Shown here piece after piece: positions 53,263-63,153 of a DNA stretch of 64,000 nucleotides. Made by a program: the position numbers and the translations under genes. The notes under the pieces are model-generated. The model saw nothing but the letters and a program-made list of their open reading frames with translations, was not told the DNA's origin and searched no databases. The stretch is from Paracoccaceae bacterium (lineage in GTDB: Bacteria; Pseudomonadota; Alphaproteobacteria; Rhodobacterales; Rhodobacteraceae). The DNA lies in NCBI GenBank assembly GCA_050299555.1, contig JBNKWA010000077.1, forward strand, positions 15,490-79,489, read 5' to 3'. Each line of letters begins with the position of its first letter. Within the stretch, counting starts at the first letter, position 1.

Positions 53263-54513
53263 CTAGCGGCCGCCCGGCCCCAGCGCCCGCCAGCCGATGT
53301 CGCGGCGGCAGAACCCGCCCGGCCAGTCGATCCGCCCGACGATGCCATAGGCGAGGTCCCGCGCCTCGGCCAGGCTCGCCCCCCTTGCGGTGACGTTCAG
53401 CACCCGGCCGCCACTGGAAACCAGCCTGCCGTCCTCCGCCTTCGTCCCGGCATGGAAGACCTGCACCCGCGGGTCGGCGACCTCGGGCAGCCCGATCGCC
53501 TCGCCCTTCGCATAGGTGCCGGGATAGCCCTTGGCCGCCAGCACCACGGTGATGGCGTGATCCTCGGCCCAGTGCGGCCGCAGGGTGCCGAGCCGCCCCT
53601 CGGACGCCGCCAGCATCAGGTCCAGCGCCTGGGCGCCAAGCCGCAGCATCAGCACCTGGCACTCGGGGTCGCCGAAGCGGACATTGTACTCCACCAGCCG
53701 CGGGCGGCCGTCCTCGATCATCAGCCCGGCATAAAGCACTCCCTGATAGGGTGTGCCCCGGCGCGCCAGCTCGGCCAGCGTCGGGCGGATGATCGTCTCC
53801 ATTGCCAGCGCCTCGACCTCCGGGGTCAGCACCGGCGCCGGCGAATAGGCACCCATACCGCCGGTATTCGGCCCCTCGTCACCGTCAAAGGCGCGCTTGT
53901 GATCCTGGGCGCCGCCGATCGCCACCGCCGCCTCGCCGTCGCAGAGCACGAACAGCGAGGCCTCCTCGCCGGCCATGAATTCCTCGATCACCACCGGCGT
54001 GCCGTCCAGCATGTCGATGGCCGCCAGCGCCTCGGCCTCGGTCATCGCCACGGTAACGCCCTTGCCGGCCATCAGCCCGTCGGCCTTGATGACGATGGGC
54101 GCGCCGACCTCTTGCACATGGGCCCGAGCGGCCCCGGGGTCGGTGAATCGCGCCCAGGCGGCGGTCGGCGCGCCGCAGGCGTCGCAGATTTCCTTGGTGA
54201 AGGTCTTCGACGCTTCAAGCTCGGCCGCCGCCCGGTTCGGCCCGAAGGTCAGGAACCCGGCCGCCCTCAGCGCGTCCGCCACCCCGGCCGCCAGCGGCGC
54301 CTCGGGGCCGATGACGACGAAATCCGCCGCCACCTCGCGGGCCAGAGCTACCACCGCGTCCGCATCCTCGATATCGCAGGCCCGGCACTCGGCCAGCGCC
54401 GCGATCCCGGCATTGCCCGGTGCCGCCACCAGACGGTCGCATTGCGGGTTCTGCCGCATCGCCCAGGCCAGCGCGTGTTCGCGCCCACCGCCGCCGAGAA
54501 GAAGGATGTTCAT
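53263..54513 (-). CDS. purD: Phosphoribosylamine--glycine ligase
   Basis: The ATG at 54513 gives MNILLLGGGGREHALAWA..., 416 aa. The remainder of the 815-aa track ORF is antisense to xseA. Confidence 0.97.
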   Translation of the reverse strand: MNILLLGGGGREHALAWAMRQNPQCDRLVAAPGNAGIAALAECRACDIEDADAVVALAREVAADFVVIGPEAPLAAGVADALRAAGFLTFGPNRAAAELEASKTFTKEICDACGAPTAAWARFTDPGAARAHVQEVGAPIVIKADGLMAGKGVTVAMTEAEALAAIDMLDGTPVVIEEFMAGEEASLFVLCDGEAAVAIGGAQDHKRAFDGDEGPNTGGMGAYSPAPVLTPEVEALAMETIIRPTLAELARRGTPYQGVLYAGLMIEDGRPRLVEYNVRFGDPECQVLMLRLGAQALDLMLAASEGRLGTLRPHWAEDHAITVVLAAKGYPGTYAKGEAIGLPEVADPRVQVFHAGTKAEDGRLVSSGGRVLNVTARGASLAEARDLAYGIVGRIDWPGGFCRRDIGWRALGPGGR

Positions 54514-54666: not shown

Positions 54667-56226
54667 ATGTCCGATCTGTTCGAAGACCCGAGCCCCGGCG
54701 GCAACGCACCGGAATTCACCGTCACCGAGATTTCCGGCGCCGTCCGCCGGGTCATCGAGGGCGAGTTCTCCCGGGTGCGGGTGCGGGGCGAGGTCGGCCG
54801 GGTATCGCGCCCCGGCTCGGGACACCTCTATTTCGACCTCAAGGATGACCGCTCGGTGCTTGCGGCAGTGTCGTGGCGGGCCCAGGCGGCACGCCTCACG
54901 GTCCGGCCCGAAGAGGGCATGGAGGTGATCGCCGTCGGCCGGCTGACCACCTTCGGCGCGCAATCGAAGTACCAGCTCGTGGTCGAGGAACTGCAGCTTG
55001 CGGGGCAGGGGGCACTGCTGGCGATGCTGGAGCGCCGCCGCAAGGCACTGGCGGCCGAGGGGCTGTTCGATTCGGCCCGCAAGCGGCCGCTGCCATACCT
55101 GCCGGCGGTGATCGGGGTCGTCACCTCGCCTTCGGGGGCGGTGATCCGCGACATCCTGCACCGCCTGCGCGACCGATTCCCGCGCGAGGTGCTGGTCTGG
55201 CCGGTGACCGTGCAGGGCACCAGGTGCGCCGACGAGGTGGCCGCCGCCATCCGCGGCTTCAACGCGCTTGCCCCGGGCGGCGCGCTGCCGCGCCCGGACG
55301 TGCTCATCGTTGCCCGGGGCGGCGGCTCGATCGAGGACCTCTGGGGCTTCAACGAGGAGGTCGTGGTGCGCGCCGCCGCGGCCAGCGACATCCCGCTGAT
55401 CTCGGCCGTGGGGCACGAAACCGACACCACGCTGATCGACCTCGCCGCGGATGTGCGGGCGCCGACGCCGACGGCAGCGGCGGAACTGGCGGTGCCGGTC
55501 CGGGCCGAGCTTCTCGCCACCGTCGCCGGGCTGGAGGAGCGCCGCCTGCGCGCCCTGGCCCGTTCCATGGAGCAGGCGCGGCAGCGGCTGCGCGATCTGG
55601 CCCGGGCATTGCCGCGACCCGAGGCGCTGACCGCCGAACGCGGCCAGCAGCTCGACCATCTCGCCACCCGCCACGCCGCGGCGCTGCCGCGCTTCATCGA
55701 CGGCCGGCATCGCCAGCTCGGCGCCATCGCCTTCCGACCGGAACGATTGGAAGGGCTGGTGGCCACCAAGAAGGCCAACCTCGACTCCGTCGCCGAGCGC
55801 CTGTCGACCAGGCTCGGCCGCGTGATCGAGCGCGGGCGCGACCGGTTGGCGGCGCAGCGGCTGTCGCCGGCGCGGCTGGAACAGCGCCGGGCCGAGGCCA
55901 CGCGCGGGCTGCTGCAGACTTCCGAGCGTCTGTCACGCGCCACCGGGGCCCAGCTCGCCGGCTGGCGGGGGCAACTCGACGGGCTCGAGCGGGTGCGCCA
56001 GACCGTCGGATACCGGGCGACGTTGAAACGCGGCTTCGCCGTGGTGCACGGGCCCGGCGGCGTCGTCGCCAGCCGCGATGCCGCGGCGGCCGAGGCGGCG
56101 CTGGAGATCGAGTTCGCCGACGGCCGCCTGCCGGTGGCTCCGGGCAATCCGCCCCCCGAGGCCCCATCCCGGCCGGCGCCGCGCCGAAAGACAGCCAGGG
56201 GCGATCCCCAGGGCAGCCTTTTCTGA
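54667..56226 (+). CDS. xseA: Exodeoxyribonuclease VII large subunit
   Basis: OB fold [28 protein letters not shown], catalytic [16 protein letters not shown], long coiled-coil C-terminus. Confidence 0.95.
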
Positions 56227-56262
56227 CAGATTTTGCGGCCCCGGGCATGCCGCGGTCGGCCT

Positions 56263-56330
56263 GTCCCCATGGGGACATGGGGTCAACATGTTGATATTGC
56301 TGCAATTCAAGTGGGGACACGTGTGGGGAC
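56263..56330 (+). repeat. GGGGAC-repeat element, copy C (68 bp)
   Basis: GTCCCCATGGGGAC-ATGGGGTCAACATGTTGATATTGCTGCAATTCAAG-TGGGGAC-ACGTG-TGGGGAC, between the convergent genes xseA and xthA. Confidence 0.8.
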
Positions 56331-56383
56331 GCCGCGGGCGGCACTGGCCCGGGGCGGTAATGCGCCCCGATTGGTGCCGGTCG

Positions 56384-57157
56384 CTATCCGGCCAGCTCGG
56401 CCCAGACCGGGGCGTGGTCCGAGGCGTTCTCGCGGCCGCGAACGGCCCGATCCACGCCCGAGGCCCTCAGCCGGGGTGCAAGCCCGGGGCTCAAGAGGAT
56501 GCAGTCCAGCCGCAGCCCGGCGTCACGCTCCCAGCGCTGGCGGCGATAGTCCCAGAAGGTGAAGAGCCGCCCCTCGGGCTGGCAGGCCCTGAGCGCTTCG
56601 GTCCAGCCCTGGGCCAGCAACGCCCGGAACCGGTCGCGGACCTCGGGCTGCAGCAGCGCGTTGTCGTCGTACGAACGCGTGGGATAGATGTCGTCCGGCC
56701 CCAGCACGACGTTGAAGTCGCCGGCCAGCGCCACCGGCACACCCTCGGCCAGCAGGCTTTCGGCATGGGCGTTGAGCCGGTCCATCCAGGCAAGCTTGTA
56801 GTCGAATTTCGGCCCCGGCCGCGGGTTGCCGTTCGGTGCATAGACCGACGCGACCAGCACCCCCGCGACGGCGGCCTCGACATAGCGGGCCTGCCGGTCC
56901 GCGTCGTCGCCCGGCAGCGCGGTGCGGGTCAGCACCGGATCGCGGCCGCGGGCAAGGATGGCGACGCCGTTCCAGGTCCGCTCGCCGCACCAGACGGCGC
57001 CATAGCCGGCTTCGGCCAGCGCACTGCGCGGAAACTGCGTGTCGGTCGCCTTCAGCTCCTGCAGGCAGACCGCGTCGGGCTGCGCCTCGGCCAGCCAGTC
57101 CAGGAGGTTCGGCAGCCGCTTGCGGATGTTGTTGATGTTGAAGCTGGCGATCTTCAT
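56384..57157 (-). CDS. xthA: Exodeoxyribonuclease III (AP endonuclease, EEP fold)
   Basis: MKIASFNINNIRKRL...CLQELK...SDHAPVW. The start abuts the stop of the upstream hydrolase gene (TAG then ATG). Confidence 0.95.
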   Translation of the reverse strand: MKIASFNINNIRKRLPNLLDWLAEAQPDAVCLQELKATDTQFPRSALAEAGYGAVWCGERTWNGVAILARGRDPVLTRTALPGDDADRQARYVEAAVAGVLVASVYAPNGNPRPGPKFDYKLAWMDRLNAHAESLLAEGVPVALAGDFNVVLGPDDIYPTRSYDDNALLQPEVRDRFRALLAQGWTEALRACQPEGRLFTFWDYRRQRWERDAGLRLDCILLSPGLAPRLRASGVDRAVRGRENASDHAPVWAELAG

Positions 57158-57790
57158 CTAGCCAAGGCGCGCCGCCCAGCCGGCGACACTGCCGGCCACT
57201 GTCGCCAGATGGTCGGTCGCGGTCAGCCCGGTCAATCGCTTGCGCGGCTTCAGGTCGTGGTCGCCATCCTCCAACCACAGGATCTCGATGGTCGGCGACA
57301 GGGTCAGCGGCGCGATCTCGTCGCGGCTACCGAAGGGGTCGCGGGTGCCCTGACAGATCAGCGCCGGCGTCTGCAGCCCCTCCAGATGCGCGGTGCGCAG
57401 CTGCGCCGGCCGGCCCGGCGGATGGAACGGGTAGCCGAGGCAGACCAGCCCGGCGATGGCGCCTGCGGCGAAAAGTTCGTCCGCGACCATGCTGGCGACC
57501 CTGCCACCCATGGACTTGCCGCCGATGACCAGCGGTGTCGCCGCGCCAAGCGCCGCGACCGCGGCGCGATATTCGGGGATCACCGTCTCGGCCCGGGGCG
57601 GGGGCTTGCGCCGGCCGTCGCGGCGGGCGGCCATGTAAGCGAACTCGAACCGCGCCACGGCAAGACCGGCGGCGACGAAGGCAGCGGTGGCAGCCTCCAG
57701 CGCCGGTGAATCCATCGGCGCGCCGGCGCCGTGGGCCAGAAGCAGCGTCACCGCCGCATCCGCCGGTCCGTCACGCAGAAAGGCGGTCAT
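57158..57790 (-). CDS. Alpha/beta-hydrolase family protein (COG3571-like)
   Basis: The ATG at 57790 overlaps the upstream stop (ATGA). LLLAHGAGAPMDS, nucleophile elbow GGKSMGG, GTRDPFG, DGDHDL. Confidence 0.8.
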   Translation of the reverse strand: MTAFLRDGPADAAVTLLLAHGAGAPMDSPALEAATAAFVAAGLAVARFEFAYMAARRDGRRKPPPRAETVIPEYRAAVAALGAATPLVIGGKSMGGRVASMVADELFAAGAIAGLVCLGYPFHPPGRPAQLRTAHLEGLQTPALICQGTRDPFGSRDEIAPLTLSPTIEILWLEDGDHDLKPRKRLTGLTATDHLATVAGSVAGWAARLG

Positions 57791-58875
57791 CGCACGGCCG
57801 CCTGCAGCGCCACCAACTGCAGCCCCTTGGCGGCGCGGCGGCCCCATTCACTGTCGGGGTCGAGCTCCAGGTAGCGTTCCCACCAGCGCCGGGCCTGGTC
57901 CAGCCGGCCGGAGTCGAATTCCAGCTTGGCGAGGTTGAAGGCGGCGTCGGCATAACCCGGATCCCGTTCCAGCGCCCGGGTCAGGTGGCGCCGCGCGGCC
58001 CCCACATGGCCGCTGTCGCTCATCAGCCCGGCAAGGTTGAACCAGGCCTCGACGAAGCCCGGGTCGATCTTGACCGCGCGGGCATAGTCATGGGTGGCCT
58101 CGGCAGCGCGCCCAAGCTCTCGCAGGCAGTTGGCGCGGTTGAAGGCAGCGACGGAGTCGCCGGGGTCGGCAGCCAGCGCGCGCCCGTAAAGCGTGGCGGC
58201 CTCGGCAAGGTCGCCGTCGGCCTCGGCCGCCTCGGCGGCGGCGAAGAGCGCATCGGGGTCAGCGTCGGCCGCCGGCGCGAGGTCGAGCCGGCCCTGGCCG
58301 TCGAGCTCGGCCGTCCCGGTGCCGTGGCGGGCAACGATCGTGTCATCGCCCGCCAAAGCCAGAGCCTGGGCGGTGAGTGCGGCCGGATCCGCCGCCCGCC
58401 GGACGGCGCGCGCGACCGGCAGCCAGCCGGCGCCGTCGGCGATCAGCCGGGCGTATTTCCGGGCGAGGATGAGATCGCGAAAGCCGAAGGGCCCGGTGTC
58501 GGTCTCGAAGGCGTCGAAGACGGCAAGGAGGTCGAAATCGGCCTCGGCGAGCCCCGACTGGTCGATCAGCCCCCGCCGGGTCAGGGCGGCGGCTTCGGGT
58601 GTTGCGTTAGCCGGCAGGACGCCGAGGCGGCGGAGAAATCCAGCCTCGCTCCAGGCGGCGCAGCCGGCAGCGGTGACGGCGGCAAGGTCGGCGGCAATGG
58701 CCTCGGCATCGGCCCGGTCGAGCAGCCGGCGCCCGAAGACCACGGCGCTGGCGCTGCGGGTCAGGCCGCGCCTCAGCCGGCCGCCCTGGGCCTCCACGGC
58801 GCGCGAGGCCAGGCGCCGCGGCACGGCCTCCAGCGGGCCGATGATTCCCAGCGACTGGCCGTCGAGCGCGGTCAC
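57787..58875 (-). CDS. BRCT-like N-terminal domain + TPR-repeat protein
   Basis: 362 aa. LDGQSLGIIGPLEAVPRRLASRAVEAQGGRLRRGLTRSASAVVFG...W is BRCT-like. The C-terminal half has several TPRs (AEATHDYARAVKIDPGFVEAWFNLAGL..., AFNLAKLEFDSGRLDQARRWWERYLELDP). The start overlaps the ku stop (ATGA). Confidence 0.7.
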   Translation of the reverse strand: MTALDGQSLGIIGPLEAVPRRLASRAVEAQGGRLRRGLTRSASAVVFGRRLLDRADAEAIAADLAAVTAAGCAAWSEAGFLRRLGVLPANATPEAAALTRRGLIDQSGLAEADFDLLAVFDAFETDTGPFGFRDLILARKYARLIADGAGWLPVARAVRRAADPAALTAQALALAGDDTIVARHGTGTAELDGQGRLDLAPAADADPDALFAAAEAAEADGDLAEAATLYGRALAADPGDSVAAFNRANCLRELGRAAEATHDYARAVKIDPGFVEAWFNLAGLMSDSGHVGAARRHLTRALERDPGYADAAFNLAKLEFDSGRLDQARRWWERYLELDPDSEWGRRAAKGLQLVALQAAVR

Positions 58876-59747
58876 TTCCCGGCTTTGCGGCGGGCGCCTC
58901 CGGCGGCCGTCTTGCGCGCCGGCTTCTTCTCGGCGTCGGCCTTGCCGCGGCTTTTCGCCGGCGGTTTCTGCTCGGTCAGGCTGGCCTTCAGCGCATCCAT
59001 GAGGTTGACCACGTTGCCGCGCTCGGGCGCCGCGGCGATGACCGGCGTGTGACCCTTGATCTTGTCGCGGATCATTTCCATCAGCGCCGTCTCATAGCGA
59101 TCCTCGTAGGCCTTGGGATCGAAGCTGGTGGTCTTCTGCTCGATCAGCCTTTCGGCCAGTGCCAGCATGTCGGCATCCGGCTTGCCATCGGGGATGTTCT
59201 CGAAATAGGCAGCGGTGCCGCGCACTTCCGCGGGGTTCCTTAGGGTCTGCACGAACATTCCGTTGTCCAGGGCGCCGATGGTGACCACGCGCTCGCGGCT
59301 GGACAGCACCAGCCGGGCAACGGCCAGCTTGCCGGATTCGCGCAGCGCCTCGCGCAGGACGATGAAGGTCTCCTCGGCCATGGCGCCGTCGGGTGCGAGG
59401 TAATACGGCGCCTCCTGGAAGATCGGCTCGACCTCGTCCGCATCCACAAAGGCCTCGATGTCCAGCGTGTGCCTGGACTCGATCTTCACCGCCTCGAGGT
59501 CCTCATCGGTGATGATGACGTATTTCTTGTCCTCGTACTCGTAGCCCTTGACCAGGTCGGACCGCTCCACCAGCCCCAGCTCCGGGTCGACCGGCTTCAT
59601 GTTGATGCGGTTGTGGGTGTCCTTGTGGAGCTGGTTGAACCGGATCCGCTCGGACGAACTGGTGGCCGGGTAAAGCCGCACCGGACAGGTGACCAGACTC
59701 AGCTTCAGATAGCCCTTCCAGCTTGCGCGTGGCGCCATTGGTGGCAC
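58872..59747 (-). CDS. ku: Ku protein (NHEJ DNA-end-binding) with Lys-rich C-terminal tail
   Basis: ASWKGYLKLSLVTCPVRLYPATS...FNQLH... canonical bacterial Ku. 291 aa. Confidence 0.95.
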   Translation of the reverse strand: MPPMAPRASWKGYLKLSLVTCPVRLYPATSSSERIRFNQLHKDTHNRINMKPVDPELGLVERSDLVKGYEYEDKKYVIITDEDLEAVKIESRHTLDIEAFVDADEVEPIFQEAPYYLAPDGAMAEETFIVLREALRESGKLAVARLVLSSRERVVTIGALDNGMFVQTLRNPAEVRGTAAYFENIPDGKPDADMLALAERLIEQKTTSFDPKAYEDRYETALMEMIRDKIKGHTPVIAAAPERGNVVNLMDALKASLTEQKPPAKSRGKADAEKKPARKTAAGGARRKAGK

Positions 59748-59759
59748 TCCTGTTCTTTT

Positions 59760-62216
59760 TCACAGCCTGATCCTGCCGGTCGGCAAGGCCCGCGCGGCGG
59801 CGTCGATGTCGCGCCACGGGTCGCCTGCCTGCTGCAGAAGCCGCGGCAGGGAAGAATAGTTCAAATCCTCCGGTGCGTCGACGGACTCGAGATCCGGCCA
59901 GTTAATCGGTGCAGATGCCGGCAGACTGGTGCGCGCGCGCAACGAATATGGCGCCGCCGAGGTGGCGCCGCGGACGTTGCGGTGGAAGTCGATGAAGATT
60001 CGCCGCCGTCGCTTGTCCTTGGCCTGGGTGGTGACAAAGGTCTGCGGCTCGGCCCCGGCGATGGCTTCGGCGATTGCGCCGGTGGCGCCGTGCACCTTGT
60101 CCCAGCCGAGCCGGGGCTTGATCGGGACCACGACGTGGATGCCCTTGCCACCCGATGTCTTCACGAACGGTACCAGCCCCAGCCCCTCCAGCACGCCGCG
60201 GATATGGATCGCCGCCTCGACGATCTCGCGCCAGGCGATGCCTTCGCCGGGGTCGAGGTCGAAGGTCACCCGGTCGGGTTTGTCCAGCTGCTGGCGGTGG
60301 CTGCCCCAGCTGTGGAACTCCACCACCCCGAATTGCGCCAGCCCCAGATAGCCGCGGGCGTCCTCGATGGCGATGTAGGATTTGGTCTCGCCGTCCGAGG
60401 TGGTCACCGGAAAGCTCGCCACCGACGGCGGCATCCCGGAAAACGCGTGGCGCTGGAAAAAGCAGTCCTGGGGTCGGCCGGTGGGGCAGCGGATCAGCGA
60501 CACCGGGCGGCCGAGGATGTGCGGCAGCATGAAGTCGCCGACCGACGCGTAGTAGACAGCGACATCGAGCTTGGTGGCGCCGGAGCGGCCGAAAAGGCGA
60601 CGGGTCGGGTTGGTGACCCAGACCGAGGCGAGATCGGCATCCGAGATCAGCCGCTCCCGGGGCGCCGGGTCGGCGGGCGCGAAGGCGACCTCGCGCAGGC
60701 CCTTGAAGACCGCATGGCGGAGCGCGCCCGTCGCCGTTCTCGTCGCATAGTGGACATGGGCGGTCAGCACCGGCCTGACCCAGCGGATACCCTTGGGTGC
60801 CCTGTCGAGCGCCACGCCGCCATCCTCGAGCGGCTGCAGCCGGGCGAGAAGGTCGGCAAGCGTCGCCTCGTCGAAACCGGTGCCGACCTTGCCGACATAA
60901 GCCAGCTCGTCGCCCCGCCATTCGGCCAGCGCCAGCGCGCCCAGGCCGCCGGTCGCCGCCGACGCGGTGAAGCCCGCGATGGCGAAATCGCCCACCTTCA
61001 CCGCCTTCACCTTGAGCCAGCTTCGGGACCGGCCCGGCTGATAGGCCGCATTGCCGCGCTTGGCGATCACCCCCTCCAGCCCCATCTCCGAAACGCGCTC
61101 GAAGAACGCCCCGCCGCCGCCTTCCACGTGGTCGAGATACTGCACCGGCGCGTTGCGGGGCAGGCCCTGCAGCAGCGTGGCCAGCAGCGCCTTGCGGCGG
61201 ACGAGCGGCGCGGCGGTCAGGTCCCAGCCATCGAGAAACGGCAGGTCGAAGGCATAGAAGATCAGCCGCTCGCTCTCCCCCTTCGACAGCGCCTCCTGCA
61301 GCAGCGTCAGGTGGGTGGCGCCGGTCTCGTCCTGCACCACGACCTCGCCGTCGATCACCGCCTCGCGGCAGGGCAGCGCGCCGAAGGCCCCCGCCAGCGC
61401 GCCATAACGCCCGGTCCAGTCCAGCCCGCTGCGGGTGACCAGCCGCGCCTCGCCGCCGGCGATCCGGGCGGTTGTGCGATAACCGTCGAGCTTGATCTCG
61501 TGCAGCCAGTCGTCGCCTTCCGGCGGTGCGGCGGCTGCACTGGCGAGCTGCGGCGGCAGCCGGTCGGGGAGGGGGGCCTTGGCGGCGCCGGGCAGGTTGC
61601 CGGGCCGCAGCGGCCTCGATCTGGCGGGCGTTGGCTCGGTGGGCGGCGGTTCGGCCAGCAGGTCCTCGATCCGGCGCCCGGACTTCACGCTTTCCGGGCG
61701 CGCCTCCAGGACATCCGTCTCCCGGTCTGCCGCCTGGTCGCGCTCCTTGAAGAGCAGCCAGTTGCGCCTGGTCTCGCCGTCCTTGGGCTTCAGCCGGGCC
61801 AGCATCCAGCCGCCCCTCAGCTTCTCGCCGGCAAGGCGGAACTTGAACGCGCCGGCGGCGAGGCTTTCGCCCGGATCCTCCATCGGCGCCCAGGTGCCGG
61901 TGTCCCAGACGATCATCGGCCCGCCACCGTATTCGCCGGCCGGGATGACGCCCTCGAAGTCGATATAGTCGAGCGGGTGGTCCTCGGTCTCCACCGCCAG
62001 CCGCTTGTCGTCTGGGTCAAGCGACGGCCCCTTGGGCACAGCCCAGGATTTCAGCACCCCGTCCAGCTCCAGCCGCAGATCGTAATGGTCGGCGGTGGCA
62101 TGATGCTTGTGAACGACAAAACGGTTGCCGCCCGCCCCGGGCCTGCCGCCCTGCGGCTCGGGCGTGCGGGCGAAGTCGCGCTTGGCGCGATAGCTGTCGA
62201 GTTTCGCCTTGGCCAT
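59760..62216 (-). CDS. ligD: ATP-dependent DNA ligase LigD (phosphoesterase-ligase-polymerase/primase order)
   Basis: ATG at 62216 (MAKAKLDSYRAKRDFARTPEP). PE domain FVVHKHHATADHYDLRLE, adenylation motif EIKLDGYR, Pol domain KTSGGKGIHVVVPI. Confidence 0.95.
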   Translation of the reverse strand: MAKAKLDSYRAKRDFARTPEPQGGRPGAGGNRFVVHKHHATADHYDLRLELDGVLKSWAVPKGPSLDPDDKRLAVETEDHPLDYIDFEGVIPAGEYGGGPMIVWDTGTWAPMEDPGESLAAGAFKFRLAGEKLRGGWMLARLKPKDGETRRNWLLFKERDQAADRETDVLEARPESVKSGRRIEDLLAEPPPTEPTPARSRPLRPGNLPGAAKAPLPDRLPPQLASAAAAPPEGDDWLHEIKLDGYRTTARIAGGEARLVTRSGLDWTGRYGALAGAFGALPCREAVIDGEVVVQDETGATHLTLLQEALSKGESERLIFYAFDLPFLDGWDLTAAPLVRRKALLATLLQGLPRNAPVQYLDHVEGGGGAFFERVSEMGLEGVIAKRGNAAYQPGRSRSWLKVKAVKVGDFAIAGFTASAATGGLGALALAEWRGDELAYVGKVGTGFDEATLADLLARLQPLEDGGVALDRAPKGIRWVRPVLTAHVHYATRTATGALRHAVFKGLREVAFAPADPAPRERLISDADLASVWVTNPTRRLFGRSGATKLDVAVYYASVGDFMLPHILGRPVSLIRCPTGRPQDCFFQRHAFSGMPPSVASFPVTTSDGETKSYIAIEDARGYLGLAQFGVVEFHSWGSHRQQLDKPDRVTFDLDPGEGIAWREIVEAAIHIRGVLEGLGLVPFVKTSGGKGIHVVVPIKPRLGWDKVHGATGAIAEAIAGAEPQTFVTTQAKDKRRRRIFIDFHRNVRGATSAAPYSLRARTSLPASAPINWPDLESVDAPEDLNYSSLPRLLQQAGDPWRDIDAAARALPTGRIRL

Positions 62217-62352
62217 GTTTTCCGGGGCCCGGTGGGACGGTGGGGCCGAGCCTATGGCCTCGGGCCGTGAGGCGGCAAGCGCAAGGATCGGGTTGGCTTT
62301 CCGTGGCCCGGCCTCGATAATCGAGGGGCATTCGGGGCGGGGAGGCCGGGCA

Positions 62353-63153
62353 ATGACTGGGACAGGCACGATTCGCGTCGGCATCGGCGGCTGGACCTTC
62401 GCGCCATGGCGCGGCAGCTTCTATCCCGAGGATCTGACGCAGAAGCGCGAGCTGGAATACGCGGCCAGCAAGCTGACCTCGATCGAGATCAACGGCACCT
62501 ACTACGGCTCGCAAAAGCCCGAGAGCTTCCGCCGCTGGCACGACGAAACGCCGGACGGGTTCATGTTCGCGGTCAAGGGGCCGCGCTTTGCCACCAACCG
62601 CCGGGTCCTGGGCGAGGCCGGCGAATCGATCGACCGGTTCTTTTCCAGCGGCCTGCTGGAGCTGAAGGACAAGCTGGGGCCGGTGAACTGGCAGTTCATG
62701 GCCACCAAGGCCTTCGATCCGGAGGATTTCGAGGCGTTCCTGAGCCTTCTGCCTACGTCGCTGGACGGGCGGGCCCTGCGCCATGCGGTCGAGGTGCGGC
62801 ACGACAGCTTCCGGGTGCCGGAATTCGTGGCGCTGGCGCGCAAGTATGGCGTGGCGGTGATCGCGGCGGCGGACGGCAAGTACCCGCAGATCGCCGATGT
62901 GACGGCGGATTTCGTCTATGCGCGGATCATGGGGACGACCAAGGGCGAGGCCGAGGGATATCCGGCGGCTGCGCTCGATGCCTGGGCGGCGCGGGCCATG
63001 GCCTGGGCGGGAGGCGCGGTGCCCGAAGGGCTGGAGCGGGCGTCGGAAACGGACGCGGCGCCGGGTCCGCGGGACGTCTTCCTCTACGTGATCAGCGGCA
63101 ACAAGGTGGCGAACCCGGCGGCGGCGATGGCACTGATCCGGCGGCTGAGCTGA
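62353..63153 (+). CDS. DUF72 (YecE-like) family protein
   Basis: ATG at 62353. IRVGIGGWTFAPWRGSFYPEDL...LTSIEINGTYY DUF72 signature. Divergent from ligD. Confidence 0.9.
   Translation: MTGTGTIRVGIGGWTFAPWRGSFYPEDLTQKRELEYAASKLTSIEINGTYYGSQKPESFRRWHDETPDGFMFAVKGPRFATNRRVLGEAGESIDRFFSSGLLELKDKLGPVNWQFMATKAFDPEDFEAFLSLLPTSLDGRALRHAVEVRHDSFRVPEFVALARKYGVAVIAAADGKYPQIADVTADFVYARIMGTTKGEAEGYPAAALDAWAARAMAWAGGAVPEGLERASETDAAPGPRDVFLYVISGNKVANPAAAMALIRRLS

What the first reader, a model, noticed from the sequence alone, without database searches (positions are those of the whole stretch)
56384..62216. Five-gene translationally coupled NHEJ operon: ligD-ku-BRCT/TPR-alpha/beta hydrolase-xthA
Seen on the minus strand:
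- ligD (59760-62216) is followed after 12 nt by ku (58872-59747).
- The ku stop overlaps (ATGA) the start of a BRCT+TPR protein (57787-58875).
- That stop overlaps (ATGA) the start of a COG3571-like alpha/beta hydrolase with a GGKSMGG nucleophile elbow (57158-57790).
- The hydrolase TAG stop directly abuts the ATG of exonuclease III (56384-57157).

Established: bacterial NHEJ is described as an essentially two-component Ku + LigD machine. Nucleolytic and phosphoesterase end-cleaning is supplied by LigD domains.

Inference: the tight coupling suggests three extra dedicated components. These would be a scaffold (BRCT/TPR), a hydrolase of unknown substrate (for example removal of 3' or 5' blocking adducts or protein-DNA esters) and a 3' exonuclease/AP endonuclease. 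If so, this is an expanded NHEJ system that I have not seen described.
Basis: partly seen in the sequence, partly recalled or inferred. Interest (0 to 1): 0.72.

Follow-up and report, generated by a model that had tools for sequence, protein, structure and literature searches.

The report
Ku-LigD end-joining operon with extra genes
A bacterial DNA end-joining (Ku + ligase D) gene cluster carries three extra, tightly packed genes (a BRCT/TPR adaptor-like protein, a serine hydrolase and exonuclease III) that stay with it in at least 80 sequenced species, so this supposedly two-protein repair pathway probably has undescribed helper proteins.

Summary
There are two small corrections. The BRCT/TPR gene starts with GTG (the overlap is GTGA, not ATGA). 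Ku most likely starts at ATG 59738, 21 nt after ligD.

The order ligD-ku-BRCT/TPR-hydrolase-xth recurs in every untruncated locus of 80 species (Ensifer/Sinorhizobium, Mesorhizobium, Aminobacter, Chelativorans, Devosia), except one without ligD. The flanking genes differ between loci. It includes the S. meliloti ku2/ligD2 locus, that organism's main experimentally shown NHEJ pathway.

Distant relatives of the BRCT/TPR protein (31-36% identity; Reyranella, Vineibacter, soil metagenomes) are still next to Ku. They often have a PF20408 hydrolase and LigD nearby, in other orders and orientations, but no xth.

The middle protein is a family of its own: an RFC1/LigA-type BRCT fold, a possibly MerR-like helix-turn-helix, and TPRs. 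The hydrolase keeps Ser-Asp-His; Xth keeps its catalytic residues.

Best reading: a conserved accessory module of one Ku/LigD subtype. Linkage is shown; biochemical roles are inferred. I found no description in the searchable literature. It is a new variant of a known system, testable directly in S. meliloti.

The parts
59760..62216 (-). ligD: DNA ligase D with N-terminal 3'-phosphoesterase, central ATP-dependent ligase and C-terminal primase-polymerase domains
   Evidence: Pfam PF13298, PF01068, PF04679 and PF21686. NCBIfam TIGR02776, E = 2e-200. 60-69% identical to the LigD of 79 related loci.
62251..62278 (-). Promoter-like motif TTGCCG-N16-CATAGG, 34 nt upstream of the ligD ATG
   Evidence: The pattern TTG[CA]NN-N15-18-C[AC]TA[GT] occurs upstream of ligD in 31 of 77 loci, against 0.5% of random 120-nt windows. 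In most loci it ends 5-9 nt before the start codon. Its function is inferred only.
58872..59738 (-). ku (probable ATG start; a GTG alternative lies at 59747)
   Evidence: PF02735 E = 1e-43, TIGR02772 E = 3e-86. The 288-aa product matches the public gene call exactly. 73-82% identical to cassette Ku proteins, 48% or less to other Ku types.
57787..58875 (-). Gene for the Ku-linked BRCT / helix-turn-helix-like / TPR protein (362 aa); GTG start overlapping the ku stop (GTGA)
   Evidence: AlphaFold2 model with pLDDT 91. Family of 283 clusters at 50% identity (E-value up to 0.001), nearly all full-length members 350-390 aa with one architecture. Next to Ku in every locus long enough to tell.
58591..58866 (-). 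BRCT domain (residues about 4-95)
   Evidence: Foldseek against PDB: RFC1 BRCT 2ebu E = 3.4e-4, probability 1.0, followed by LigA, PARP1, Dbf4, TopBP1 and REV1 BRCTs. Profile against PDB sequences: RFC1 E = 0.01, LigA E = 0.04, aligned over residues 4-84. No Pfam BRCT hit.
58300..58584 (-). Family-specific middle domain (residues about 98-192), possibly a MerR-like winged helix-turn-helix, with the hallmark motif LxLFDxxE...FRDLxxAR
   Evidence: 8 of 32 diverse members hit Pfam MerR_1 at E <= 1 (best 2.3e-4). hhalign against five MerR N-termini: probability 21%, E = 0.001, in the expected register. No PDB sequence match. Assignment inconclusive.
57793..58263 (-). TPR domain (residues about 205-361; 102-nt periodicity visible in the DNA)
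   Evidence: Pfam TPR_2 E = 2e-24 and related models. Foldseek matches to consensus TPR and OGT TPR structures. Direct repeat family D1 spaced at 102 nt.
57158..57790 (-). PF20408 (Abhydrolase_11, KANL3/Tex30-type) serine hydrolase; ATGA overlap with the preceding gene
   Evidence: PF20408 E = 1e-68. Ser93 (GGKSMGG), Asp151, His178 and the HGxG motif at residues 20-23 are conserved in at least 98% of 79 orthologues. A PF20408 gene also lies near distant Ku-BRCT/TPR pairs.
56384..57157 (-). xth: exonuclease III family AP endonuclease / 3'-5' exonuclease; its ATG directly follows the hydrolase TAG
   Evidence: TIGR00195 scores 211 bits against a cut-off of 183. Residues E34, D147, N149, D247 and H248 are conserved in at least 98% of 79 orthologues. 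Present in all 5-gene cassettes but absent from the distant loci.

Best explanation
This is a conserved, horizontally mobile cassette of Alphaproteobacteria that encodes one particular subtype of the Ku/LigD end-joining machine together with a dedicated accessory module.

Shown:
- The five genes are packed as one transcription unit.
- They are kept together, in order, in about 80 species, in unrelated genomic contexts.
- The BRCT/TPR protein family is found next to Ku in every informative locus, however distant.
- The hydrolase and Xth retain intact catalytic residues.
- The orthologous S. meliloti locus (ku2/ligD2) is that organism's main NHEJ pathway.

Inferred mechanism:
- Ku binds the broken ends.
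- The co-translated BRCT / helix-turn-helix-like / TPR protein acts as an adaptor on the Ku-DNA complex. Its RFC1/LigA-class BRCT and its middle domain contact DNA ends or nicks. Its TPR domain holds a protein partner (Ku, LigD, the hydrolase or Xth).
- Exonuclease III removes 3' blocks and abasic sites near the ends that the LigD phosphoesterase cannot handle.
- The serine hydrolase removes an ester- or amide-linked group, on a protein or at an end, whose identity is unknown.
- LigD then fills in and seals.
For: - Gene identities.
- Junctions.
- No internal promoter hit on the operon strand and no terminator hits above chance.
- The same five genes lie on S. meliloti pSymB, annotated ligD / Ku / TPR / alpha-beta hydrolase / xth.
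- Ku2/LigD2 account for more than 99% of plasmid repair events in log phase in S. meliloti: PMC6379672.
- 313 species genomes carry the family. The 80 retrieved loci all show the five genes in the same order, apart from L071 (no LigD within about 9 kb upstream) and truncated contigs.
- Gene spacing is conserved.
- The five genes are shared by 79-83 of 83 loci; flanking ORFs by 9 at most.
- Cassette Ku is a discrete clade: 92 of 736 plasmid records, with no record between 48% and 60% identity, close to the 87 records that carry the BRCT/TPR gene.
- Three sampled Ku loci of other types lack the three genes.
- Distant family members: all 23 metagenome loci with enough flanking sequence have Ku adjacent, in two different orientations. 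9 also have a PF20408 gene nearby, mostly on the opposite strand, and LigD. The same holds in Vineibacter and Reyranella genomes despite inserted genes.
- BRCT fold.
- Catalytic residues conserved.
Against: - No experiment links the three proteins to end joining. The S. meliloti study does not mention them.
- xth is missing from the distant loci, so it is not part of the universal core.
- Some distant loci have Ku plus BRCT/TPR without a hydrolase or LigD within several kb (L087-L089, L096).
- In S. meliloti, ligD2 and ku2 are reported to have independent promoters, so the unit is not always a single operon.
- The BRCT lacks the Ser/Thr of the usual phosphate pocket: Val aligns with the Thr of the RFC1/LigA 'TG' motif.
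- The hydrolase substrate is entirely unknown.
- LigD already supplies 3'-end cleaning, so the need for Xth is an assumption.
Confidence: 0.6

Rival explanations
1. The BRCT / helix-turn-helix / TPR protein is a transcription regulator of ku and its operon, not a repair factor. A MerR-like DNA-binding domain would bind the promoter, and the BRCT and TPR domains would sense a signal. The hydrolase and xth would be merely co-regulated stress genes.
For: - Weak MerR-type signals in the middle domain.
- In one distant subgroup the gene is transcribed divergently from ku, with about 200 nt between them. This layout is typical of regulator-target pairs (L087-L093).
- ku2 of S. meliloti is stress-induced by an unknown regulator (PMC6379672).
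Against: - The MerR assignment is weak (hhalign probability 21%).
- The predicted structure shows no MerR-type dimerisation coiled coil after the helix-turn-helix.
- The gene overlaps the ku stop codon by 1 or 4 nt in 62 of 82 loci. This suggests production in step with Ku, which is more typical of a complex partner.
- The BRCT is of the DNA-end-binding RFC1/LigA class.
Confidence: 0.15
2. The cassette is mainly an excision or single-strand-break repair unit for stationary phase. Xth cuts at abasic sites, the LigD polymerase and ligase fill and seal, and Ku with the adaptor handles abasic sites near ends. This would parallel the mycobacterial LigC/Prim-PolC base-excision complex, with double-strand-break joining as a side activity.
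For: - An AP endonuclease sits in the operon with conserved catalytic residues.
- The mycobacterial LigC complex interacts with core base-excision enzymes, including XthA/ExoIII (PMC5663958; PMC7470946).
- The closest matches to the BRCT (RFC1, LigA, PARP1) are from nick and gap repair proteins.
Against: - The orthologous Ku2/LigD2 pair is shown to carry out double-strand-break end joining in S. meliloti.
- xth is absent from the distant Ku-BRCT/TPR loci.
- Ku, a DNA-end binder, is the one invariant partner.
Confidence: 0.15
3. The three extra genes have no functional connection to end joining. They travel with ku/ligD only because the block spreads as a unit by horizontal transfer among Alphaproteobacteria.
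For: - The window organism is placed in Rhodobacterales by PurD (72-77% identity to its best relatives). Yet its Ku is 80-82% identical to Ensifer/Sinorhizobium Ku.
- The cassette lies on megaplasmids and chromids.
- Both observations fit transfer of the whole block.
Against: - Hitch-hiking does not explain why the linkage survives rearrangement. In distant lineages the BRCT/TPR gene stays next to Ku in two orientations, and the hydrolase stays nearby on the opposite strand, even with unrelated genes inserted.
- Overlapping start and stop codons are conserved.
- No locus with enough flanking sequence has a BRCT/TPR gene without Ku.
Confidence: 0.07

Closest known systems
Canonical two-component bacterial NHEJ (Ku homodimer + LigD; M. 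tuberculosis, P. aeruginosa, B. subtilis)
   Same: Ku and a three-domain LigD (phosphoesterase, ligase, polymerase) are encoded side by side and match the equivalog models above their cut-offs.
   Different: Three further genes are packed into the same unit and conserved with it. Reviews and surveys I could read describe LigD pathways as Ku + LigD only (PMC7470946; PMC7719229; abstracts listed).
Sinorhizobium meliloti Ku2/LigD2 pathway (Dupuy et al. 2019, PMC6379672)
   Same: It is the orthologous locus. The same five genes lie in the same order on pSymB, with LigD 65%, Ku 82%, BRCT/TPR 57%, hydrolase 71% and Xth 68% identical to the window proteins. The pathway is shown experimentally to be the main NHEJ route and ku2 to be stress-induced.
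   Different: The paper treats the system as Ku2 + LigD2 and never mentions the three downstream genes (0 occurrences). S. meliloti has a 92-nt ligD-ku spacer with a separate ku2 promoter; the window has 21 nt.
Mycobacterial LigC / Prim-PolC base-excision repair complex (PMC5663958)
   Same: An ATP-dependent ligase and primase-polymerase work with exonuclease III-type nucleases in stationary-phase repair.
   Different: There the link is by protein interaction, not a shared operon. No Ku, BRCT/TPR protein or PF20408 hydrolase is involved. Here the ligase is LigD and Ku is the invariant neighbour.
Eukaryotic BRCT scaffolds of end joining and break repair (XRCC1, LigIV-XRCC4, Pol lambda/mu BRCT, PARP1) and DNA-binding BRCTs of RFC1 and bacterial LigA
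   Same: A single BRCT fold sits in a protein genetically tied to Ku and a ligase. The closest structures are the RFC1, LigA and PARP1 BRCTs. That BRCT domains recruit repair factors to Ku-DNA or nicks is established knowledge, not something tested here.
   Different: No detectable sequence relationship beyond the fold (E = 0.01-0.04). The domain partners are different (helix-turn-helix-like domain plus TPRs). The Thr of the phosphate-binding 'TG' motif is Val here. Analogy only.
LigB-Lhr-MPE-exonuclease repair gene cluster (Ejaz & Shuman 2018, as summarised in PMC7470946)
   Same: A bacterial ATP-dependent ligase sits in a conserved cluster with dedicated end-processing enzymes.
   Different: The partner proteins are entirely different (helicase, metallophosphoesterase, metallo-beta-lactamase nuclease), and there is no Ku.

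Membership tests
LigD (bacterial NHEJ ligase) | Phosphoesterase, ATP-dependent ligase and primase-polymerase domains in one protein | tested here: met
   PF13298 (residues 36-141), PF01068 + PF04679 (233-509), PF21686 (548-801). TIGR02776 scores 667 bits against a cut-off of 373.
Bacterial Ku | Ku beta-barrel core matching the bacterial equivalog model | tested here: met
   PF02735 E = 1e-43. TIGR02772 scores 289 bits against a cut-off of 150.
Two-component Ku/LigD NHEJ system | ku and ligD adjacent and co-oriented | tested here: met
   21-nt gap, same strand.
Two-component Ku/LigD NHEJ system | Ku and LigD suffice; no further dedicated components | tested here: inconclusive
   Three further genes are conserved with the pair. 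Sufficiency can only be tested by genetics or biochemistry.
Two-component Ku/LigD NHEJ system | End-joining activity in vivo | not testable with these tools
   Shown for the S. meliloti orthologues Ku2/LigD2 (PMC6379672), not for this organism.
Exonuclease III (Xth) family | Match to the equivalog model above its cut-off, with catalytic Glu, Asp, Asn and His residues | tested here: met
   TIGR00195 scores 211 bits (cut-off 183). E34, D147, N149, D247 and H248 are conserved in at least 98% of 79 orthologues.
   E = 1.2e-68, model positions 3-191 of 193. The COG number itself could not be checked with these tools.
PF20408 Abhydrolase_11 | Catalytically competent Ser-Asp-His triad | tested here: met
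   S93 in GGKSMGG, D151 and H178, plus HGxG at residues 20-23, conserved in at least 98% of 79 orthologues. Activity and substrate were not tested.
BRCT domain | The beta-alpha-beta-beta-alpha-beta-alpha fold of about 90 residues | tested here: met
   AlphaFold2 pLDDT above 90 over residues 1-90. Foldseek probability 1.0 to the RFC1, LigA and PARP1 BRCTs.
BRCT domain | Match to a curated BRCT sequence model | tested here: not met
   No Pfam BRCT hit even at E <= 10. Only weak profile hits to the RFC1 and LigA BRCT sequences, E = 0.01-0.04.
BRCT domain | Phosphate-binding pocket (Ser/Thr-Gly ... Lys/Arg) | tested here: inconclusive
   Gly13 and Arg20/21 align with RFC1/LigA residues, but Val replaces the Thr.
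MerR-type winged helix-turn-helix | Sequence or profile match to MerR models | tested here: inconclusive
   8 of 32 members hit PF13411 at E <= 1 (best 2.3e-4), all below the curated cut-off. hhalign probability 21%.
MerR-type winged helix-turn-helix | C-terminal dimerisation coiled coil | tested here: not met
   The model shows a short helix and a three-stranded sheet after the helix-turn-helix region, then the TPRs.
TPR repeat proteins | Tandem 34-residue helix-turn-helix repeats | tested here: met
   TPR_2 E = 2e-24, with 4 matched stretches. The structure matches consensus TPRs.
Anti-phage defence systems (PADLOC) | Match of any component to a defence-system model | tested here: not met
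   The only hit is a TPR-region match at E = 6e-6 to an unrelated model; the other four proteins have none.

The most novel reading that the evidence does not exclude
The Ku-linked BRCT/TPR protein and its partner serine hydrolase solve a problem that bacterial NHEJ is not known to solve. The adaptor would recognise Ku on DNA. The hydrolase, acting as a peptidase or esterase, would then either release Ku rings left trapped on the DNA after ligation or strip protein or acyl adducts from the ends. This would be a bacterial counterpart of eukaryotic Ku extraction or of protein-DNA crosslink processing.
Probability: 0.12. Interest if true: 0.9.

Novelty: new variant of a known kind. Interest (0 to 1): 0.74.

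Why it matters
Bacterial end joining is described as a minimal Ku + LigD machine and is used as such in genome-editing tools. Here a whole subtype of it carries conserved extra proteins, and that subtype includes the main pathway of the model bacterium S. meliloti.

- One extra protein belongs to an uncharacterised family that was found next to Ku in every informative locus.
- Another is an active-looking hydrolase of a family with no known substrate.

If these proteins take part in repair, the two-component picture is incomplete. Earlier ku2 mutant phenotypes may include polar effects on the downstream genes. The PF20408 family, which includes human TEX30 and KANSL3, would gain its first functional context. 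Strains and assays to test this already exist.

Tried and rejected
- **EcfG/RpoE2 promoter.** GGAAC-N15-18-CGTT has no site near the operon in the window and is found upstream of ligD in only 2 of 77 loci.
- **Alphaproteobacterial LexA box.** GTTC-N7-GTTC or GAAC-N7-GAAC occurs in 0 or 1 of 77 loci. I have no evidence for SOS or general-stress control.
- **Promoter and terminator scans.** Nothing inside the operon exceeds chance.
- **Defence system.** No PADLOC match of substance.
- **Mobile-element borders.** No flanking direct or inverted repeats beyond GC-rich chance matches, and the only repeat family of note is the TPR periodicity. The one tRNA call lies inside xseA and is probably false.
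- **Foldseek with the full-length model.** Swamped by TPR hits, so I re-modelled the N-terminal 200 residues on their own.
- **Middle domain.** No PDB sequence relative.
- **Hydrolase.** No solved close relative.
- **Literature.** Locus tags SMb20685-89 gave 0 papers. Other searches found no description of the three genes with Ku. Kobayashi 2008 is not held and no Dupuy 2019 supplements are held.
- **M. loti heat-shock data.** They list a Ku gene, mll4607, as induced but say nothing on its neighbours, and I could not tell whether it is the cassette Ku.
- **Organism name.** Exact look-ups returned no name. Placement in Rhodobacterales rests on PurD relatives.

Full report
**1. The observation**

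Family scans identify them as follows:
- LigD with phosphoesterase, ligase and primase-polymerase domains.
- Bacterial Ku.
- A 362-aa protein whose C-terminal half is TPR repeats.
- A 210-aa PF20408 alpha/beta hydrolase.
- Exonuclease III.

Reading the junctions confirms the ATGA overlap between the TPR gene and the hydrolase, and the TAG|ATG abutment of hydrolase and xth.

Two details need correction:
- The Ku stop overlaps a GTG start, not an ATG start (GTGA).
- Ku more probably begins at ATG 59738, which has AGGAG 8 nt upstream. The 288-aa product is the one in the public gene call. ligD and ku are therefore 21 nt apart and not translationally coupled.

Consensus scans find no promoter-like site on the operon strand, and the terminator-like hits do not exceed the number expected by chance.

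**2. Is the arrangement conserved?**

A tblastn search of plasmid records with the TPR protein found 87 full-length matches, all in Sinorhizobium, Ensifer or Pararhizobium. The annotated S. meliloti pSymB locus reads ligD, Ku, TPR protein, alpha/beta hydrolase, xth, with unrelated neighbours. This is the ku2/ligD2 locus.

I then built an alignment of the non-TPR N-terminal 200 residues and scanned one genome per species. 313 genomes encode a relative, and the best 80 loci were returned. They cover Ensifer/Sinorhizobium, Pararhizobium, Mesorhizobium, Aminobacter, Chelativorans, Devosia and uncultured Alphaproteobacteria.

Every locus carries Ku, the TPR protein, the hydrolase and Xth in the same order and on the same strand wherever the contig reaches. 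LigD is missing upstream only in L071 (no LigD within about 9 kb) and L042 (truncated contig).

The tight spacing is conserved across the 82 loci examined:
- Ku to TPR gene: -4 or -1 nt in 62 of 82.
- TPR gene to hydrolase: 3 nt or less in 64 of 81.
- Hydrolase to xth: 16 nt or less in 74 of 78.
- ligD to ku: median 26 nt.

The five genes have homologues in 79-83 of 83 loci, whereas ORFs in the flanks are shared by at most 9 loci. So the block is kept together while its surroundings change.

**3. Is it specific to one kind of Ku?**

Ku is found in 736 plasmid records. Identity to the window Ku is bimodal: 92 records at 60% or more, and the rest at 48% or less. The first number is close to the number of records with the TPR gene.

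Three Ku loci of other types have none of the three extra genes: Polymorphobacter, Qipengyuania, and a Rhizobium ku-ku-ligD locus.

**4. Distant relatives**

A profile search with the N-terminal alignment over 1.84 billion representative proteins gives 283 clusters at 50% identity (E-value up to 0.001). Nearly all full-length members are 350-390 aa with the domain at the N-terminus, and identity to the window protein goes down to about 30%.

Using three of the most distant members as query, a metagenome scan returned 31 loci. In all 23 with enough flanking sequence, Ku is adjacent. There are two arrangements:
- ku divergent from the TPR gene.
- ku, then the TPR gene, then a PF20408 hydrolase on the opposite strand, then LigD. 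This was confirmed by Pfam for L099.

Named relatives of this subgroup are Dongiaceae, Vineibacter and Reyranella. In the Vineibacter terrae and Reyranella genomes the Ku-TPR gene pair is tight. The hydrolase and LigD lie 2.5-7.5 kb further on, behind inserted biotin or toxin-antitoxin genes. No exonuclease III gene lies within 9 kb.

The hierarchy of linkage is therefore:
- Ku + BRCT/TPR protein: in every informative locus.
- Hydrolase and LigD: usually.
- xth: only in the five-gene cassette.

Linkage that survives changes of order and strand is hard to explain by hitch-hiking.

**5. What the proteins are**

*The BRCT/TPR protein.*
- The full-length AlphaFold2 model is confident (pLDDT 91), but fold matches are all TPR.
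- A separate model of residues 1-200 (pLDDT 90.7, pTM 0.87) matches BRCT domains over residues about 4-95. The best match is RFC1 (E = 3.4e-4, probability 1.0), then LigA, PARP1, Dbf4, TopBP1 and REV1.
- The sequence profile also weakly finds the RFC1 and LigA BRCTs (E = 0.01 and 0.04), aligned end to end. No Pfam BRCT model matches.
- In that alignment Gly13 and Arg20/21 correspond to residues of the RFC1/LigA motif, but Val replaces the Thr.
- Residues about 98-192 carry the family's most conserved motif (LxLFDxxE...FRDLxxAR). 8 of 32 diverse members give sub-threshold hits to Pfam MerR_1 (best 2.3e-4). A MerR-like winged helix is therefore possible but not established.

*The hydrolase.* Ser93, Asp151, His178 and the HGxG motif are conserved in at least 98% of 79 orthologues. 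It has no close solved relative.

*Xth.* It keeps E34, D147, N149, D247 and H248.

None of the proteins resembles a known defence-system component.

**6. What is known**

Dupuy et al. (PMC6379672) show that Ku2 and LigD2 perform more than 99% of plasmid end joining in growing S. meliloti. [quoted passage not shown] The paper does not mention the TPR, hydrolase or xth genes.

Reviews and surveys I could read treat LigD pathways as Ku + LigD. The nearest precedent for a nuclease link is the mycobacterial LigC/Prim-PolC complex, which binds XthA/ExoIII and glycosylases for base-excision repair. Locus-tag and keyword searches found no description of this cassette. The library is incomplete, so prior mention elsewhere cannot be excluded.

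**7. Interpretation**

Shown:
- Gene identities, the packed organisation, and conservation of the block in variable contexts.
- A Ku subtype specific to the block.
- Persistent Ku linkage of the BRCT/TPR family.
- Intact catalytic residues in the hydrolase and Xth.

Inferred:
- The BRCT/TPR protein is an adaptor on Ku-bound DNA.
- Xth extends 3'-end and abasic-site cleaning beyond the LigD phosphoesterase.
- The hydrolase removes an unknown ester- or amide-linked group.

I give this 0.6. The rivals are a regulator role for the BRCT/TPR protein (0.15), a mainly excision or nick repair role (0.15) and pure hitch-hiking (0.07).

**8. Origin of the cassette**

PurD places the window organism in an undescribed lineage of Rhodobacterales (best relative 77% identical; named relatives at 72-73% are Cereibacter, Thioclava and Paracoccaceae). 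Yet its Ku is 80-82% identical to that of Ensifer/Sinorhizobium, and the ku region has a lower G+C content than its surroundings. This suggests horizontal spread of the block. I did not measure PurD identity to Hyphomicrobiales directly, so this remains an inference.

**9. Verdict**

It is a new variant of a known system, built around an uncharacterised Ku-linked protein family, and it is directly testable in an existing model organism.

Noticed in passing
window 62251-62278 (-); also upstream of ligD in L001, L003-L055 and others: A promoter-like motif TTGC..-N15-16-C(A/C)TAG lies upstream of ligD in 31 of 77 loci, against 0.5% of random windows. In most loci it ends 5-9 nt before the start codon, which would make the ligD mRNA leaderless. 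In the window it lies 34 nt upstream of the start.
   Followed up: partly
window 62353-63153 (+): A DUF72 (PF01904) gene is transcribed divergently from ligD across a gap of about 136 nt, with a sigma-70-like site at 62293-62321. It is not conserved next to the cassette in other genomes.
   Followed up: partly
window 54667-56226 (+) and 53263-54513 (-): xseA (exonuclease VII large subunit) converges on xth, with purD beyond it. Neither accompanies the cassette in any of the other loci, so the juxtaposition of nucleases looks coincidental.
   Followed up: partly
window 59000-60000: The ku region has 63-65% G+C against 70-75% around it. Its protein is more similar to Hyphomicrobiales Ku (80-82%) than PurD is to the organism's own closest relatives (72-77%). 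This hints at horizontal acquisition of the cassette.
   Followed up: partly
L099 10159-13560; L119 17578-end: LigD in the distant Ku-BRCT/TPR loci is 1090-1133 aa long and carries two primase-polymerase domains in tandem.
   Followed up: no
L118 10230-12528; L119 10248-14334: In Vineibacter and Reyranella the Ku-BRCT/TPR pair is separated from the hydrolase and LigD by inserted GntR, bioY and bioB genes. In Reyranella there is also a HipA/HipB toxin-antitoxin pair.
   Followed up: no
window 54996-55085 (+): ARAGORN calls a 90-nt tRNA-Gln inside the xseA coding region. This is probably a false positive.
   Followed up: no
window 59469-62270 (+), 56078-57709 (+), 57535-59052 (+): Very long antisense 'shadow' ORFs (505-933 aa) lie opposite the five genes. 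This is typical of DNA with about 71% G+C and they are not genes.
   Followed up: yes
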